Program-made: the position numbers and the translations under genes
The notes under the pieces: generated by a model
What the model was told of the DNA's origin: nothing
Database searches by the model: none
What the model saw: only the letters and a program-made list of their open reading frames with translations
In this document: positions 3,735-47,189 of the stretch, one piece after another
Numbering within the stretch: position 1 is the first letter of the stretch
How the letters are laid out: every line of letters starts with the position of its first letter
Virus record (IMG/VR): IMGVR_UViG_646311924_000019
Length of the DNA stretch: 47,189 nucleotides
Direction: 5' to 3' (one strand)
From: a virus
Taxonomy: Duplodnaviria > Heunggongvirae > Uroviricota > Caudoviricetes

Positions 3735-6700
3735 TCAGCTGATACTGATACCTGCTGTGGATTTTTTCATCACCACAACCAGCAGATCGCTGATACTGGT
3801 TGTTGGTGTCCAGTTATTCGCTCCTGATGAAGATACGGTGAATGTCAGTGTCAGCGTCCCCTGTCCGGCAGGCATATCTATAACTGAAGAAAATACGCCC
3901 TGAGCATCCGTCGTGGACTGATTAAAAATCTCCTGACCATTGCGGGTCACTCTTAACCGGCAGGTTGAATACCAGTATGACTGTTGGTTATTACTGTTGA
4001 AATTCTCATGCTTACCACCGCGGAATAACACTGGCGGTATCATGACCTGCCGGTCAAACTTCTGATCATCACTGATTCTTACCGTGATGGTGCCACTGGC
4101 ATAAGTGCTCGTGCGGGGGAAAGACTTGCTGACCGTTTTGACAATATCGCCTTCAATCTGGTTGGCTGACAGTTTCCCCTTAATCTGACAGTTCTCATTA
4201 ATCGTGACGTTGTTGAGCGTCCCTGAGTTCGCATTCACACTGCCACTGATATCCGCATTTTTCGCCGTCAGTCGCCCGTCCGGCGTCAGGGAAAATGCCG
4301 GAGGATTGCCGGATGATGTGATGCTCACCGCAAACAGTCGTTTCAGGAACACGTCGTTCATGAACAGCTGATTCCCCTGCGCCACAAATAACGGCGTGCT
4401 GTTGCCGCTCTCCGGATTTATCATCGCGATACGGTCAGCCAGCAGCAGTATGTTGCTCAGTGGCTGGCCATCAGTATCCTCAATCCCTGCACCAATCCCG
4501 GCCACATAGGGAATGCCGTCTTTCGTTTTTTGAACCTTCAGCATGTACAGCGCAGCCAGGTCATCATTTGTGTCCTTCTGCACGCGCTGTATCTGCTGTA
4601 TGGTGGCGCTCTGGTCCTCCAGCGTTTTACTGACCGTCTGTGTGATTTCATTGCGGGTTTCCGTGATGCTGGTCTTCATCTCCGCCATCTCATCCGCAAG
4701 CTGGCTGTTATCTATCAGTTCCCACACCCCCTGAGCCAGATGCAGTTTTCCTATTTTTTCCCGGAAAAATTCCAGATACCCTTCACCATCATTGCTGGGC
4801 TGCCCGCTGACTTCCACAAACGCAGATTTCCCCACCAGGTTGACGCTGCGCACGTAAAACCAGAAATCCTTCCCGGGCTTAATGTGCGGGCCGGATACAC
4901 TCCACTGACTGCCGGTCCCCAGATAACGGGCAGAGGTTTCCACCTGAGATGTGTCTGCGATTTTTGCCTCCGAAAACCAGAACTCAAACTGTACCGTCGG
5001 GTCATAAACGGCAAGATGCGGCGTGGCGGTTATCTGAAAATAGCCCGGCGTCAGCTCAATCCGCGACGGTGCTGCCGGTGCGGCAATCCGGAAGGTGGTG
5101 GTGGCAGGTTCACCCTGCTGGCCATAGCTGTTTATCGCCCGCACCGTCAGGGTGTATTCCCCGAGCGGCAGGCCGCTGAAACGGTGCTCCGTGTCTGCGG
5201 TGATGGCGGTGGTCACCAGTCTGGCATCCGTTCCCTTACCACTGGTCAGGCGCAGACTGAAGCGCACGCCCTTCACCACCCGCGGCGTGTCCCATTTCGC
5301 CTGTGCCAGATACTGACCGTCAGCCGCGCTCACCTCCACCGTCAGGTGCTGCACAGCCGGCGGGATGACGCTGTTCAGCGAACCGGACAGTGGCTCAAAG
5401 CTGGCCCCGTTATCCACAATGGCTTCTTTTTCCGGTACGTGCTGCACCGCCGTGATGGCAAAGGTGCCGTCCGTGTTTTCCCGGATGGAGACACAGCGGA
5501 ACAGGCGACGACGCAGTGACGGCAGGGAGAGTCCCCATACACCGTATGTCTCCACGCCATCCGGCAGGGTGCTGACCTGTATCCGGTCCGGCGCGGGGTG
5601 TGCAGTGATGGCCACGCTCACCGGCTTACCGCTGCCGTTAATCAGGTTCACCGTCGGTGTACCTGTCTCCGGCAGGGTCACCTCACGGTCCAGTGTCAGG
5701 GTGCGGCTGGCGGCATCGATGGACAGGACACGTCCGCCGGTCATGGTCCCGGCATAGTCGTTATCACAGATTTCAATAATGTCACCGGGTGTGTGACGCA
5801 GCCCCTGAGACCCGAGCGTGAAATCCACCGTCTGCGTTTCCAGCAGTCCGGTCTTTATCACCCACAGTCCGGCACGGTAGGCCTGACCGCGGCTGGTACA
5901 GCCGAACGCGTCCATCTTCAGCAGGTTGCGTCCGTAGCGCAGTATGGCTTCCGGGTCTTCCACCAGTTCCGTGGAGGTCTGCCAGCCGTTCTGCGGGTCG
6001 GTGTAATTCACCTCCACCGCCGTGTGCCGGTCCTTCAGGGCACTGAAGCTGTAGCGGAATCCCACGCCGTTATCATCCACCACCACATCGCTGTTGGTGT
6101 ACGGCCACACCACATCCGACGGGCGGTCCTGAACGAACGTCAGCGTCTGACCGTTCCATACCGGCATACAGCGCATCGCAGAGCAGAAATCACTGAGAAC
6201 GTCCCACGCCTTACGCTGTTGTGCCAGGTACGCATTAAAGGTCATCCGCGGCTCGGTCCCCCCGAAACCATCCGGGACCGTCTGGTCGCAGTACTGCCCG
6301 ATGGCATACAGCGCCCACTTGTCCACATCCGCCGCCCCCAGACGTTTTCCCATGCCGTAGCGCGGGTGAGTCAGCATGTCCCACAGACACCAGGCCGGGT
6401 TGTTGCTGTATGCCGGTTTCAGACTGCCGTCCCAGATACCACTGTACGTGCGTTTTTCCGGGTCGTAGTTTGACGGCACCTGGATGATGCGACCGCGGAT
6501 ATGGTAGTTCACCGTCATCTGCTGGCCGCCGAACTGCTCCGCATCCACCTGCAGCCCCACAATGGCCGTGTTCGGGTAGCACTGTTTCACATCGATGATT
6601 TCGGTGTATGACGACCACAGCGTCTTATTCTGCAGCTGGTCCGTGGTGCTGTCCGCCGTCTCCCTGACCATCCGGATGTTAAAGGGCCGGGGCGGCAGAT

Positions 6701-7211
6701 TATCCAGAATCACCGACGCCAGGAACTGCGAGGTGGTCTTGCCGTTAATGGTGACATCCTTTTCTGTCACCCAGTTACCGTTACGCTGTAACTGAATCAG
6801 CAGGCGGACGGATGCCGGGTTACGGTCACCCTTTGAGGTGGTCTCCACCAGTGACTGCACCCCGAAGGTAACCCGCAGGCGGTCAATGTTCGCGGACGTA
6901 ATGGTGCGCGTCACCGGTTTTGCCTTCGTCACTTCCACGCCCAGTCCGGTTTCAGCTCCGGAGGACTCAAAGCCTTCCGGTGGTGTCTGCTCCTGCTCCC
7001 CGGCACGCCAGACCGCAGTCACACCGTGTATCACGGGATTACCGTCCGTGTCCGTCAGCGGGGTTTTGTTCACCAGAATACTCTGCAGCCCCTTCACCGG
7101 ACCTTCAATCGGCCCTTCACCAATGGCATCAATCACGCTCATCATCTGCGTGGACTTAAGATTGTCCTTTGCCTCAACCGGCGTGTGCGCCTTGCCGCCA
7201 CCTTTACCCAC
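3735..7211 (-). CDS. J: Tail tip host specificity protein J
   Basis: 1158-aa ORF collinear with lambda J ([11 protein letters not shown]...); GTG start with GGAGAGGGGG Shine-Dalgarno; C-terminal receptor-binding part diverges from lambda. Confidence 0.9.
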
Positions 7212-7254
7212 TCTGTCCCCCTCTCCTGTCTGATGTCTGAATCTGTTTATGCCC

Positions 7255-7286
7255 CAAAAACGACAGGCACCCCGGAGGGTGCCTGT
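7255..7286 (-). terminator. Terminator-like hairpin just upstream of J
   Basis: 10-bp stem acaggcaccc/gggtgcctgt followed on the minus strand by a T-run. Confidence 0.4.
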
Positions 7287-7420
7287 GTCATGACGGAATA
7301 AAATTTCTGAATTTCTTCACATTTTCTGTACGCCCCCGTGGCAGATATCATTCCCGGGCGTTACAGTTTTTTCGGGCCAATAAAAACAAAACTCCCTGTG
7401 GTTAATCTTCATTTTCTGTT

Positions 7421-7452
7421 CCCGCAGCCTCCATACACTGCGGGATTTTTTT
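7421..7452 (+). terminator. Plus-strand intrinsic terminator abutting the I stop codon
   Basis: Hairpin cccgcag/ctgcggg followed by attttttt on the plus strand; no T-run on the minus strand. Confidence 0.4.
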
Positions 7453-7457
7453 ATGCT

Positions 7458-8138
7458 TTACCCCTGCCGCCCGATAACCACCACCTTCCCGTCACCGCCT
7501 TCATCACGGGTACTGATGTCCTGGGAGATTCGCCGTGAGCCAACCAGCATTTCACCGTAAGGCACCGGCATCGGGTTCCCCTGGGCAATCATGTTATCCA
7601 GCGACGAAAAGTACGTGTTCTGTTTACCGTTATCCGTTGCCCTGTATTCCGGTGTTTTTGGCTTCGGGGCCAGCATCTGTGCCACACCACCCAGTATCAT
7701 GCTGGCACCCAGTGAAAACAGCATCGTGGTGGCAGAAAAACCACCGGCTGCCAGGGCTGAACCCCATAACGCCATCGATGCCCCGGCAGTGAAGAAAGAG
7801 CCCACGATGGCTGCCGCCCCCAGCACAATCTGCAGTCCACCCTTTCCGGCCCCGGCCAGTCGCGGCACAATGTGGATGACCGTTCCCTCACCCAGCTGTT
7901 CGTGAAGACGGGCGTACACCGCCTCCGGTGCCGTGTCCTCACCGCGAATACGTATCTGGTACCAGCCTTCGTTCATCTGACGGCGGAATCCCGGCATCTG
8001 CAGCGACAGGGCACGGATGGCTTCCGCTGCCGTGTTCACGTACAGGCTGAGGCGGCGGCCAAATCGTTGCAAATCCCCGTGAAGGCAGATGCGTGCCAGT
8101 GGCGGTGACGCCAGACAGAATGCGTTCGTCGTTGCCAT
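7458..8138 (-). CDS. I: Tail assembly protein I
   Basis: 226-aa ORF matching lambda gpI; ATG start. Confidence 0.85.
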   Translation of the reverse strand: MATTNAFCLASPPLARICLHGDLQRFGRRLSLYVNTAAEAIRALSLQMPGFRRQMNEGWYQIRIRGEDTAPEAVYARLHEQLGEGTVIHIVPRLAGAGKGGLQIVLGAAAIVGSFFTAGASMALWGSALAAGGFSATTMLFSLGASMILGGVAQMLAPKPKTPEYRATDNGKQNTYFSSLDNMIAQGNPMPVPYGEMLVGSRRISQDISTRDEGGDGKVVVIGRQG

Positions 8139-32761: not shown

Positions 32762-32838
32762 TGGCGCGTTGTAGTGGAGTCTAACCACTGACCGATTGCT
32801 TAGAAGGCAATTGCTCTGTCCGACTGAGCTAACAACGC
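32762..32838 (-). tRNA. tRNA-Arg (anticodon UCU)
   Basis: 77-nt cloverleaf folded by hand: acceptor GCGTTGT/ACAACGC, anticodon loop CTTCTAA, 3' CCA; unusual T-loop. Confidence 0.7.
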
Positions 32839-32851
32839 ATGATGCTGATAA

Positions 32852-32928
32852 TGGACCGCCATCGGGGACTTGAACCCCGCGCAGCCAGCTTCGAAGGCTG
32901 GCGCTCTGTCCCGATGAGCTAATAGCGG
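32852..32928 (-). tRNA. tRNA-Arg (anticodon UCG)
   Basis: 77-nt cloverleaf folded by hand: anticodon loop CTTCGAA, 3' CCA; acceptor stem begins with C1-G72, which is unusual. Confidence 0.6.
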
Positions 32929-32937
32929 TATGTAATA

Positions 32938-33013
32938 TGGTGGCCCTTGCTGGATTTGAACCAGCGACCTGGCGATTATGAGTCGCTCGCTCTCACCACT
33001 GAGCTAAAGGACC
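32938..33013 (-). tRNA. tRNA with CAU anticodon, Ile2-like (ileZ-type phage tRNA)
   Basis: 76 nt, closely resembles E. coli tRNA-Ile2 as recalled; anticodon loop CTCATAA, 3' CCA. Confidence 0.75.
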
Positions 33014-37154: not shown

Positions 37155-37310
37155 TTACTTCTCAGATTCGTAGTCTACGAAGACAGCGACCTCCGTCTGA
37201 CCGGTTCGGATTCGCACCTCGCAGAGGTCTTTCCTCGTTACCAGTGCCGTCACTATGACGGTTAAACAGATGACGATCAGGGCGATTAACATCGCCTTTT
37301 GCTGCTTCAT
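37155..37310 (-). CDS. hok: Hok/Gef-family type I toxin (HokD/RelF-like)
   Basis: 51 aa MKQQKAMLIALIVICLTVIVTALVTRKDLCEVRIRTGQTEVAVF...; the track ORF 37155-37367 is an in-frame upstream extension. Confidence 0.85.
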   Translation of the reverse strand: MKQQKAMLIALIVICLTVIVTALVTRKDLCEVRIRTGQTEVAVFVDYESEK

Positions 37311-37600
37311 AGCCTGCTTCTCCTTGCCTTTCGGCACGTAAGAGGCTAACCTACATGTGTTCAGCATGGATTGAGCCTCAGATTAATGTTAAGCGTCTTG
37401 CAGGACGCGTAATGTTAACTGGGGCTTTTCTCTATCTGCCGTTGGTGTTCATGCCCGAGGCAGATAGCCTCAAGCACCCGCTGCAATTCTACTTAACTAT
37501 CCTTTTCCCGCAAACCGTTTTTATCCCCAGCGGCAAATCGAATACTCCACCAGCGCCACCGCCATCGCAATTCCTACCGTTGTGAATGCTTCAGGCCAGG

Positions 37601-44805: not shown

Positions 44806-44863
44806 TTTCTGGTGACGTTTGGCGGTATCAGTTTTACTCCGTGGCTGCTCTGCCGCCCTTTTT
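44806..44863 (+). ncRNA. dicF: DicF small RNA
   Basis: tttctggtgacgtttggcggtatcagttttactccgtggctgctctgccgcccttttt matches the DicF sRNA as recalled (one mismatch), including its terminator. Confidence 0.8.
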
Positions 44864-45975: not shown

Positions 45976-46866
45976 TCAGGCTGCCAGATCATCGTTTCCG
46001 ATGGAAGCATAATAAGCTTTTTCTGCTTCTGCCGGAGGAGTATGGCCCAGCCTTCCCAGCAATCGTCGATTGTTATACCAGTCCACCCACGTTAGTGTGG
46101 CCAGTTCCACTTCTGCACGGTTTTTCCAGCTCTTACGGTGTATTACCTCCGCTTTGTAAAGACCATTGATGCTCTCAGCCATCGCGTTGTCATACGAGTC
46201 GCCTGTACTCCCTGTTGATGCCAGTAATCCGGCTTCTTTTAGTCGCTCCGTATAGGCCAGTGACACATACTGAGAGCCTTTATCGCTGTGATGGATGGTG
46301 CCAGACGGACGACGGGCCCACAACGCCTGCTCCAGCGCATCCAGCACGAATGTCGTTTCCATAGACGATGAGACCCGCCACCCCACGATGTATCCGGCAA
46401 ACACATCAATGATAAACGCCACATAGACGAAGCCCTGCCATGTGCTGACGTAAGTAAAATCAGCCACCCACAGCTGGTCAGGTCGTTCTGCCACGAACTG
46501 ACGGTTTACGCGGTCGCCTGCGGCAACGGCTTTCCGGCTGATGGTCGTACGGACCTTTTTACCCCGGAGAACACCGGCAAGTCCCATAACCGCCATGAGA
46601 CGTGCCACTGTACATCTGGCCACCCTGATTCCTTCCCGTAACAACTGACGCCAGACTTTACGCACACCGTACACCTGATGATTTTCATCGTATACGCGCT
46701 GTATCTCTCTCTTCAGCCAGTCGTCGTGCTGCGCACGGGCACTGCGTTTATCCGGATGATGTCGCTGTTGCTGACAATGGTAATACGTTGACGGGGCAAT
46801 ATGCAGTTCGCTGCATACCGGTCCGACCCCGTACTGCTCACGCAGCTTATCCAGCAGTGGCATCAT
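45976..46866 (-). CDS. IS3-family transposase OrfB (DDE catalytic domain)
   Basis: 296-aa ORF in the -1 frame relative to orfA. Confidence 0.85.
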
Positions 46867-47189
46867 TTTTTCCAGAGGCGGTCGAACTCCGCCTTCGCAA
46901 AATAAGCGGAAGCCTGGCGAAGGATATCGTTACTGCGGCGCAGTTCACGATTTTCACGTTCCAGCTCTTTCAGACGCTGACGTTCAGCGCTGGTGAGCCC
47001 ACCATCACCGCCCCCGGTATCCCGCTCATGCTGGCGAACCCAGACACGCAGAGTCTCCGGCGTACAGCCAATCTTTGGGGCAATGGAACAAATTGCCGCC
47101 CACTGTGAGTCATATTCATCCTGACTTTCCAGAACCATACGAATCGCCCGCTGACGGACTTCGGGGGAAAAACGAGTATTTTTAGTCAT
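46863..47189 (-). CDS. IS3-family transposase OrfA (HTH, leucine zipper)
   Basis: 108-aa [18 protein letters not shown]...; A6 run at the orfA/orfB overlap suggests a -1 frameshift to make OrfAB. Confidence 0.85.

What the first reader, a model, noticed from the sequence alone, without database searches (positions are those of the whole stretch)
7212..7457. A 246-bp structured insert between tail genes I and J with terminators on both strands
In lambda, I and J are contiguous. Here the gap holds a minus-strand hairpin-plus-T-run about 40 nt before the J start and a plus-strand hairpin-plus-T-run abutting the I stop. This suggests either a short plus-strand RNA ending at about 7452 or an attenuator that separates J expression from the rest of the tail operon.
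Basis: seen in the sequence. Interest (0 to 1): 0.5.

Follow-up and report, generated by a model that had tools for sequence, protein, structure and literature searches.

The report
Known prophage small RNA gene between tail genes
The 246-bp gap between tail genes I and J holds an unannotated variant of a small regulatory RNA gene already described in pathogenic E. coli (EcOnc22-24 in EHEC, PasB in EPEC), next to a terminator hairpin that lambda-like phages normally carry just before gene J, so it is real but largely already explained.

Summary
The tail genes lie on the minus strand: J starts at GTG 7211 and I stops at 7458-7460. The 246-bp gap has a hairpin plus T-run on each strand.

The plus-strand element (about 7373-7452) is a sequence variant of a published Hfq-dependent sRNA. 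That sRNA sits at this same position, antisense to the tail genes. It is PasB in EPEC E2348/69 (83 nt) and EcOnc22/23/24 in EHEC Sakai (about 85 nt). A covariance model built only from other variants finds window 7367-7454(+) at 68.6 bits, E 4.7e-11.

Upstream of the sRNA lies an invariant box with a CRP-like site (TCTGA-N6-TCACA, 7306-7321). Its spacing to the promoter motifs is fixed. I infer cAMP-CRP control; this is not shown.

The minus-strand hairpin is probably not part of the insert. Lambda, HK633, phiES15 and LAU1 all have a GC hairpin plus U-run just before J, inside 50-60-nt gaps.

A sense-strand small ORF was tested and rejected.

The junction is a cargo site. Related phages carry 2-3 tandem sRNA cassettes or a sodC-like gene there.

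Novelty is low: an unannotated member of a known sRNA family.

The parts
7212..7457 (.). Spacer between J (GTG at 7211, minus strand) and I (stop codon 7458-7460, minus strand)
   Evidence: The lambda equivalent is 60 bp.
7252..7286 (-). Intrinsic-terminator-like hairpin before J, on the tail-operon strand: stem 7286..7263, then CGUUUUUGGGG
   Evidence: Compensatory pair 7270/7279, C-G in 29 and T-A in 35 unique sequences. Replaced by an unrelated hairpin plus U-rich tract in PPompW_699-type spacers. Positional equivalents in lambda, HK633 (annotated as a terminator), phiES15 and LAU1.
7297..7325 (+). Invariant upstream box ATAAAAtTTCTGAAttTCTTCACATTTT containing a CRP-like site TCTGA-N6-TCACA at 7306-7321 (centre 7313.5)
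   Evidence: Invariant in alignments that were not selected on the box (10 BLAST-derived spacers; 30 unique spacers retrieved through protein I). It is the only match to TSTGA-N6-TCACA in the 47-kb window, against 0.15 expected.
7338..7367 (+). Promoter region of the sRNA gene: GTGGCA (7338-7343), TATCAT (7346-7351; TATAAT in most variants), GCGTTA (7358-7363), TACAGT (7362-7367; TAnnnT in the 12 variants read by eye)
   Evidence: Conserved columns. In E2348/69 the scanner finds TTCACA-16-TATAAT, 11 of 12, on the PasB strand. The distance from box to GCRTTA is 52 nt in 73 of 81 unique cassettes. The TSS is not mapped.
7373..7452 (+). PasB / EcOnc22-24-type sRNA gene, window variant (about 80 nt by homology to the published PasB ends; up to about 95 nt if transcription starts near 7358)
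   Evidence: Covariance-model hit at 7367-7454(+), 68.6 bits, E 4.7e-11. 73.6% identical to PasB and 74.7% to EcOnc22.
7402..7412 (+). Conserved single-stranded stretch UUAAUCUUCAU (candidate seed) in a U-rich region just 5' of the terminator
   Evidence: Zhu et al. 2026 place the PasB seed just upstream of the terminator.
7420..7452 (+). Rho-independent terminator of the sRNA: stem UCCCGCAG/CUGCGGGA, 10-nt variable loop, U7
   Evidence: The PasB Northern probe covers the homologous hairpin.

Best explanation
The spacer holds two separate things.

(1) A self-contained sRNA cassette on the strand antisense to the tail operon. It consists of an invariant upstream box, a promoter, an sRNA of about 80 nt and a Rho-independent terminator that ends 5 nt from the I stop codon. 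The sRNA has an unstructured A/C-rich 5' part, a conserved U-rich single-stranded stretch (UUAAUCUUCAU), the terminator hairpin and a U7 tail. This is a sequence variant of the EcOnc22/23/24 (EHEC) and PasB (EPEC) family. Members of that family are made from the silent prophage in lysogens, bind Hfq, depend on Hfq for stability, and form many Hfq-mediated RNA-RNA pairs with host and virulence transcripts. I infer that the window copy works the same way, as a trans-acting base-pairing sRNA contributed by the prophage to the host. I also infer that its promoter is activated by cAMP-CRP bound at TCTGA-N6-TCACA. If transcription starts at about 7374-7375, where the published PasB 5' end aligns, the site centre lies at about -61.5, the classical class I position.

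(2) On the tail-operon strand, 52 nt before J, the intrinsic-terminator-like hairpin that lambda-like phages generally have before J. It most likely stops non-antiterminated transcription from entering J in the lysogen, including transcription that starts in or upstream of the cassette. Q-modified polymerase would read through it during lytic growth.

Status of the steps. Shown for homologues in the literature: the sRNA exists and depends on Hfq. Shown here: position, strand, family membership and the conservation pattern. Inferred: expression of this particular variant, CRP control, and the role of the hairpin before J.
For: Position and strand. PasB lies at NC_011601.1 1466343..1466261 on the minus strand. 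It sits between I (which ends at 1466255) and J (which starts at 1466496), and its 3' end is 6 nt from I. The EcOnc22/23/24 Northern probe maps to positions 172-206 of the identical 240-bp I-J spacers of Sakai Sp15, Sp14 and Sp11, antisense to the tail genes.

Experimental properties of homologues. PasB is 83 nt by Northern, is strongly reduced in the hfq deletion (log2 fold change -6.8 and -2.4), has 37 RIL-seq interactions, and is more abundant in the non-activating than in the activating condition, while the neighbouring tail genes are nearly silent. EcOnc22 is about 85 nt and destabilised in the hfq deletion.

Membership. A covariance model built from 16 variants, each less than 80% identical to the window copy, gives a single significant hit in the 47-kb window: 7367-7454(+), 68.6 bits, E 4.7e-11.

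Fold. The RNA has a single-stranded U-rich stretch, a terminator hairpin and a U7 tail.

Promoter and box. The box is invariant in samples not selected on it. Its spacing to GCRTTA is fixed at 52 nt in 73 of 81 cassettes, whereas indels accumulate downstream. The CRP-like motif is unique in the window. In tandem arrays the repeated unit runs from box to terminator, 179 bp.

Hairpin before J. Equivalents occur in lambda, HK633 (annotated as a rho-independent terminator), phiES15 and LAU1. There is a compensatory change. An unrelated hairpin replaces it in PPompW-type spacers.
Against: There are no expression data for this exact variant, which is 74-75% identical to the validated ones. Its promoter hexamers are weaker than in E2348/69, and the promoter scanner finds none in the window.

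No 5' end has been mapped in any variant. The PasB start is taken from RNA-seq coverage. If transcription starts after the TATAAT-like hexamer (about 7358), the CRP-like site centre is at about -44.5, which is not a canonical activating position.

The left half-site is TCTGA rather than TGTGA. The core TGA-N6-TCA is shared with FNR-type sites. The higher PasB level in LB than in DMEM could reflect temperature or other differences.

No target or common target motif is established for PasB. The motif table of Pearl Mizrahi et al. has no PasB entry.

Termination by the hairpin before J has not been measured in any phage examined here.

The Hfq peak coordinates in Tree et al. Table S2 do not coincide with the probe position in the current Sakai record. 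I attribute this to the older genome version, but could not prove it.
Confidence: 0.8

Rival explanations
1. Attenuator reading: the sense-strand hairpin plus U-run reduces transcription into J, or acts as an RNA 3'-end barrier, and so sets the ratio of J to the upstream tail genes during lytic growth. This would be the main function of the spacer.
For: A hairpin plus U-run before J is conserved in position across lambda, HK633, phiES15, LAU1 and the window. It shows a compensatory change. Another hairpin replaces it in PPompW-type spacers. Together these suggest selection for a structure at this position.
Against: Lambdoid late transcription is Q-antiterminated and reads through intrinsic terminators (established knowledge). 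The feature is present without any insert, so it does not explain the extra 190 bp. phi80 has no such gap, because morF overlaps J. The sodC-type spacers lack this hairpin motif.
Confidence: 0.25
2. Cis-antisense reading: the sRNA mainly acts on the complementary late tail transcript, or that transcript acts on the sRNA. Pairing over about 80 nt would give an RNase III substrate between I and J, or the late mRNA would sponge the sRNA once the prophage is induced.
For: The sRNA gene lies wholly within the transcribed I-J spacer on the opposite strand, so perfect complementarity is guaranteed. All variants, including the tandem arrays and the sodC-like gene, keep the antisense orientation.
Against: RIL-seq shows PasB pairing with many unlinked transcripts in lysogens, where the tail genes are almost silent. 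The RIL-seq tables list no RNA from the sense strand of the spacer. Lambda makes functional tails without the cassette.
Confidence: 0.15
3. A small protein is encoded on the tail-operon strand, starting at ATG 7412 (MKINHREF..., 31 aa). The conserved TTAATCTTCAT would then be its start region.
For: The ORF 7317..7412(-) exists. Two phage records annotate hypothetical ORFs here. The first codons look similar in several variants.
Against: 24 of the 69 unique spacers have ACG instead of ATG at that position. ORF lengths range from 6 to more than 72 aa, and the frame is not kept beyond about 10 codons.
Confidence: 0.03
4. The copy in this prophage is an unexpressed relic: homologous to the sRNA gene, but with a decayed promoter.
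For: The window variant has TATCAT and no good -35 hexamer, and the scanner finds no promoter. Tree et al. list only the Sp11/14/15 type for this locus.
Against: The same variant occurs at 95% identity or more in 468 of 5426 complete genomes, at a median of 3 copies per genome, and at 99% or more in 276 of the 470 matching records. The box, the spacing, the seed and the terminator are all intact. The Sakai variant, which is expressed, also lacks a promoter that the scanner can find.
Confidence: 0.15

Closest known systems
PasB sRNA of EPEC E2348/69 (Pearl Mizrahi et al. 2021, PMC8550237; Zhu, Shabalina and Storz 2026, bioRxiv 10.64898/2026.05.13.724894)
   Same: Same locus (I-J spacer of a lambdoid prophage) and same antisense orientation. 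The 3' end is 5-6 nt from the I stop. The terminator stem CCCGCAG/CUGCGGG plus U7 is the same. The U-rich stretch before the terminator (UU[A/G]AUCUUCAU) is conserved. The upstream box and promoter spacing are the same.
   Different: Only 73.6% identical over the RNA. The terminator loop and the 5' part differ, and the promoter hexamers are weaker. Zhu et al. report PasB as usually single-copy and typical of non-EHEC/EPEC strains. The window variant occurs at a median of 3 copies in STEC genomes and may lie outside their BLAST-defined set, which is my inference.
EcOnc22/EcOnc23/EcOnc24 of EHEC O157:H7 Sakai prophages Sp15, Sp14 and Sp11 (Tree et al. 2014, PMC4104026, Table S2)
   Same: Same locus, strand and architecture. 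Detected by Hfq crosslinking, about 85 nt by Northern, and destabilised without Hfq.
   Different: 74.7% identical. No function or target has been published. Neither the PasB papers nor the review I read link EcOnc22-24 to PasB. That link rests on my alignments.
Anti-sRNAs AgvB and AsxR at the PR' moron site of lambdoid prophages (Tree et al. 2014)
   Same: Short Hfq-binding prophage sRNAs at a conserved cargo site. Family members have conserved 3' parts and variable 5' parts.
   Different: Different site (late-promoter moron site versus tail I-J junction) and unrelated sequence. The Rfam AgvB and AsxR models give no hit in the window. No evidence that this RNA sponges another sRNA.
Hairpin plus U-run in the I-J gap of lambda-like phages (annotated as a rho-independent terminator in the HK633 record NC_019719)
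   Same: GC-rich stem, tetraloop and U-run on the tail-operon strand shortly before the J ribosome-binding site.
   Different: In the window it ends 52 nt before J rather than 10-25 nt. It has no clear sequence identity to the lambda hairpin, so the equivalence is positional and structural only.
Class I CRP-dependent promoters (for example lac P1; established knowledge)
   Same: TGTGA-N6-TCACA-type site (9 of 10 core positions, with a perfect TCACATTT half) at a fixed distance upstream of weak -35 and -10 elements. The centre is at about -61.5 if the TSS is at 7374-7375.
   Different: No binding or genetic evidence. The TSS is unmapped. An alternative start at about 7358 would put the site at a non-canonical -44.5.

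Membership tests
PasB / EcOnc22-24 prophage sRNA family | Encoded in the I-J spacer of a lambdoid prophage, antisense to the tail genes, with the 3' end next to the I stop | tested here: met
   Window 7373-7452(+), with the tail genes on the minus strand. PasB and EcOnc22-24 loci were checked in E2348/69 and Sakai.
PasB / EcOnc22-24 prophage sRNA family | Sequence and structure similarity to validated members | tested here: met
   A covariance model built without window-type sequences hits 7367-7454(+) at 68.6 bits, E 4.7e-11, the sole significant hit in 47 kb. Pairwise identity is 74-75%.
PasB / EcOnc22-24 prophage sRNA family | Hfq-binding module: U-rich single strand, Rho-independent terminator hairpin, poly-U tail | tested here: met
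   Fold of 7373-7452: unpaired UUAAUCUUCAUUUUCUGUU, an 8-bp stem and U7.
PasB / EcOnc22-24 prophage sRNA family | Expressed as an RNA of about 83-85 nt whose stability depends on Hfq | not testable with these tools
   Shown only for the E2348/69 and Sakai variants.
Curated Rfam families (including AgvB RF02702, AsxR RF02703, Esr41 RF02676) | Score at or above the family gathering threshold | tested here: not met
   No hit in 7100-7600. The best is anti-hemB at 18.5 bits against a threshold of 49.5, which matches only the terminator. No PasB model gave a hit.
Intrinsic (Rho-independent) terminator, element before J | GC-rich hairpin immediately followed by a U-run on the transcribed strand | tested here: met
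   10-bp stem with 7 G-C pairs, then CGUUUUU.
Intrinsic (Rho-independent) terminator, element before J | Actually terminates RNA polymerase and is read through by Q-modified polymerase | not testable with these tools
   No transcription data were available.
Class I CRP-activated promoter | Match to TGTGA-N6-TCACA | tested here: met
   TCTGAATTTCTTCACA at 7306-7321, 9 of 10 core positions. Unique in the window against 0.15 expected. Invariant in unbiased samples.
Class I CRP-activated promoter | Site centred near -61.5 (or -71.5, -82.5 and so on) from the transcription start | tested here: inconclusive
   About -61.5 from the 5' end inferred by homology to PasB (7373-7375). About -44.5 from a start after the TATAAT-like hexamer. 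The spacing is fixed, but the TSS is unmapped.
Class I CRP-activated promoter | CRP binding and cAMP/CRP dependence of transcription | not testable with these tools
   Only indirect: PasB is lower in DMEM than in LB. That DMEM contains glucose is my own knowledge.
Small tail-operon protein | Start codon and reading frame conserved among homologues | tested here: not met
   ACG replaces ATG in 24 of 69 unique spacers. Lengths range from 6 to more than 72 aa.

The most novel reading that the evidence does not exclude
The I-J junction of Escherichia lambdoid prophages may be a second dedicated sRNA cargo site, besides the PR' moron site. It would hold a modular cassette made of a CRP-like box, a promoter, an sRNA and a terminator. 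The promoter half is kept rigid while the RNA body and seed diversify, and the cassette can be amplified to 2-3 tandem copies with different seeds. On this reading, STEC strains with several such prophages would express a family of sugar- or cAMP-responsive sRNAs. Their genes are also perfectly antisense to the late tail transcript, which would link host carbon status to host mRNA control in lysogens and to I-J mRNA processing after induction.
Probability: 0.2. Interest if true: 0.5.

Novelty: new member of a known kind. Interest (0 to 1): 0.3.

Why it matters
The element is not annotated under any of the 60 best matches listed, out of 470 matching records, and no Rfam family matches it, so a genome reader meets it as an unexplained gap. 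Recognising it as an EcOnc22-24/PasB-type sRNA gene has several consequences. It explains the gap. It joins two literatures (EHEC Hfq-CRAC and EPEC RIL-seq) that name the same locus differently. It shows the family is broader and more multi-copy in STEC than the PasB survey suggests: 468 of 5426 complete genomes carry this variant alone. The invariant CRP-like box with fixed spacing gives a directly testable idea for how the family is regulated. The tandem arrays and the sodC-like insertion mark the I-J junction as a cargo site that is always transcribed antisense to the tail operon. None of this overturns current understanding.

Tried and rejected
1. Rfam, at gathering threshold over the whole window and permissive over 7100-7600. 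Nothing relevant in the spacer.

2. Sense-strand small ORF (MKIN...). Rejected because the start codon and frame are not conserved.

3. AgvB/AsxR anti-sRNA identity, my first recollection. Those lie at the PR' moron site and do not match.

4. Using the Hfq-peak coordinates of Tree et al. Table S2 directly. In the current Sakai record they fall on the J-proximal part of the spacer, inconsistent with the probe. A calibration with the EcOnc42 probe was not decisive, so I relied on probe sequences instead.

5. A scan of one genome per species with the box pattern. Apart from E. albertii, the 42 hits look like chance matches in unrelated taxa, though I did not inspect them, so the module appears confined to Escherichia.

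6. A search for a target of the conserved seed inside the window. Five matches against 2.9 expected, none convincing.

7. A search for a sense-strand Hfq-bound RNA from the spacer in the EPEC RIL-seq tables. None is listed.

8. A check of whether Tai-type defence morons use this junction. They are not located here.

9. A minus-strand promoter that would make hairpin 1 the end of a divergent sRNA. Only a symmetric ATnAT motif without a -35 hexamer was found, and there is no experimental support, so this is left as a minor possibility.

Full report
**Anatomy**

The window is a lambdoid prophage of Shiga-toxin-producing E. coli. It is identical across this region to O157, O111 and other STEC chromosomes, and nearly identical to phage BP-4795.

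The tail genes lie on the minus strand. J runs 3735..7211, with a GTG start preceded by GGAGAGGGGGA. I ends with the stop codon at 7458-7460. The spacer 7212-7457 is therefore 246 bp, as reported.

On the minus strand, a 10-bp GC-rich stem (7286..7263) is followed by CGUUUUUGGGG. On the plus strand, an 8-bp stem (7420-7427 / 7438-7445) with a 10-nt loop is followed by U7, ending at 7452.

Rfam has nothing for the spacer.

**What the plus-strand element is**

Two published data sets describe an sRNA at this position.

- In EPEC E2348/69, PasB is an 83-nt, Northern-validated RNA whose level depends on Hfq. It lies at NC_011601.1 1466343..1466261 on the minus strand (Pearl Mizrahi et al. 2021, Table S6). 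In that genome I ends at 1466255 and J starts at 1466496, both on the plus strand. PasB therefore lies in the I-J spacer, antisense, and ends 6 nt from I. The reverse complement of its probe is the hairpin-2 sequence of the E2348/69-type spacers.
- In EHEC Sakai, EcOnc22/23/24 (prophages Sp15, Sp14, Sp11) were found by Hfq crosslinking. The RNA gives a band of about 85 nt and is destabilised without Hfq (Tree et al. 2014, Table S2). The shared probe maps to positions 172-206 of the three identical 240-bp I-J spacers, again antisense to the tail genes.

The papers I read do not connect EcOnc22-24 with PasB. The connection rests on my alignments.

The window copy is a third sequence type. It is 73.6% identical to PasB and 74.7% identical to EcOnc22.

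As a formal membership test, I built a covariance model from 16 variants that are each less than 80% identical to the window copy. Its only significant hit in the 47-kb window is 7367-7454(+), at 68.6 bits and E 4.7e-11.

The predicted RNA has a single-stranded U-rich stretch that contains the conserved UUAAUCUUCAU, then the terminator hairpin and U7. This is the usual Hfq-binding layout. Zhu et al. 2026 also place the PasB seed just 5' of the terminator.

**Upstream region**

I examined three samples: ten spacers taken from BLAST hits, 69 unique spacers from viral contigs, and 30 unique spacers retrieved through protein I and so not selected on the spacer itself.

In all three, the most conserved part is not the RNA body but a roughly 29-nt box at 7297-7325. 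The box contains TCTGA-N6-TCACATTT. That is 9 of 10 core positions of the CRP consensus, with one perfect half-site. It is the only such match in the window, against 0.15 expected.

The distance from the box to the conserved GCRTTA motif is 52 nt in 73 of 81 unique cassettes. Distances to the seed and to the terminator vary by indels. This is what a fixed activator-promoter geometry followed by a transcribed region would give.

Two promoter readings remain open:

- TATAAT-like hexamer at 7346-7351. In E2348/69 this is TTCACA-16-TATAAT, 11 of 12. The start would be near 7358.
- GTGGCA-18-TACAGT. The start would be near 7374-7375. This matches the coverage-defined PasB 5' end (7373 by alignment) and puts the CRP-like site at about -61.5.

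CRP control is my inference. The only indirect support is that PasB is lower in DMEM than in LB. An FNR-type protein or another factor is not excluded.

**The minus-strand hairpin**

Lambda's own I-J gap is 60 bp, not zero. It contains AAACCGCC-UGCG-GGCGGUUU followed by a U-rich tract, shortly before the J start.

HK633, Cronobacter phage phiES15 and Enterobacter phage LAU1 have I proteins only about 30-34% identical to the window's. Each has a 50-55-nt gap with a GC stem, a tetraloop and U6-7, 10-15 nt before J. The HK633 record annotates its hairpin as a rho-independent terminator.

Within the STEC spacers, the hairpin shows a compensatory C-G/T-A exchange. In PPompW-type spacers an unrelated hairpin plus U-rich tract takes its place. 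In tandem arrays it occurs once, at the J-proximal end.

I therefore read it as the ordinary terminator-like element that precedes J, with the sRNA cassette lying between it and the I stop.

Its role is not established. The likeliest is to stop non-antiterminated transcription from entering J in lysogens, with read-through by Q-modified polymerase in lytic growth. This rests on established lambda biology and is an inference here.

**Rejected and minor readings**

A sense-strand ORF starting at ATG 7412 looked tempting, because the conserved UUAAUCUUCAU is the complement of AUGAAGAUUAA. However, 24 of the 69 unique spacers have ACG there, and ORF length and frame are not kept.

A cis-antisense role on the late transcript is possible in principle but has no support. 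The RIL-seq tables list no spacer RNA from the sense strand, and the tail genes are nearly silent in lysogens.

**Wider context**

The window-type sRNA segment occurs in 468 of 5426 complete E. coli genomes, at a median of 3 copies, and no feature is annotated under any of the 60 matches listed. Any type of the spacer occurs in 865 genomes, at a median of 6 copies.

In a one-genome-per-species scan, the only hit in a related organism was E. albertii. The other hits lie in unrelated taxa and are probably chance matches, though I did not inspect them.

Some phages carry two or three cassettes in tandem, with different RNA bodies. In 20 of 79 close relatives, a sodC-like gene in antisense orientation replaces the box and promoter while the sRNA 3' part remains. 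phi80 has morF at the junction. The I-J junction is thus a cargo site.

**Verdict**

The 'short plus-strand RNA' reading is right, and that RNA is already known under two names. The 'attenuator insert' reading is not supported as stated.

What is new here is modest:

- a further, widespread and unannotated sequence variant;
- the link between EcOnc22-24 and PasB;
- the invariant CRP-like box with fixed spacing;
- the tandem arrays;
- the recognition that the hairpin before J is a general feature of lambda-like tail operons.

Noticed in passing
L191, L196-L199 and 15 further loci (851-852-bp I-J spacers); not in the window: In 20 of 79 viral contigs with a nearly identical protein I, the I-J spacer carries a Cu,Zn superoxide dismutase (sodC-like) gene antisense to the tail genes. 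It is followed by its own hairpin and then by the 3' part of a PasB-like gene (seed and CCCGCAG terminator) without the CRP-like box. The sRNA remnant may now be the 3' end of the sodC-like transcript.
   Followed up: partly
L059, L114, L134 (two cassettes 179 bp apart) and L100 (three cassettes): Tandem arrays of box-promoter-sRNA-terminator cassettes within one I-J spacer. The J-proximal cassette has a different RNA body and terminator (for example CUCCCG...CGGGAG plus U6), which suggests seed diversification.
   Followed up: partly
window 7227-7240 (minus-strand sense: UCAGACAUCAGACA, just 5' of the J Shine-Dalgarno): The heptamer TGTCTGA is repeated twice here and four times in Stx2 phage 1717 (L010). 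This is copy-number variation right next to the J ribosome-binding site.
   Followed up: no
L011 1446-1505 (lambda), L260 1229-1281 (HK633), L261 1217-1266 (phiES15), L262 1214-1265 (LAU1): Every lambda-like I-J gap examined has a GC hairpin with a tetraloop plus a U-run shortly before J. Only the HK633 record annotates it as a terminator. Its role in a Q-antiterminated operon is unexplained.
   Followed up: partly
window 29280-29452(-), 37305-37479(-), 44807-44858(+), 32765-33013(-), 46792-46908(-): Other RNA features of the prophage found by Rfam: STnc100 (related to PasD according to Zhu et al.), sok antitoxin RNA, DicF, three tRNA genes, and an ALIL frameshifting pseudoknot of an IS3-family element.
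   Followed up: no
Sakai loci L013, L014, L015: The Hfq-peak coordinates for EcOnc22/23/24 in Tree et al. Table S2 fall about 130 nt from the probe target when read on NC_002695.2. The likely cause is that they refer to the earlier genome version, so anyone re-using that table should re-map it.
   Followed up: partly
L259 1242-1775 (phi80): phi80 carries a protein-coding moron (morF) in sense orientation between I and J, overlapping the J start, with no intergenic hairpin.
   Followed up: no
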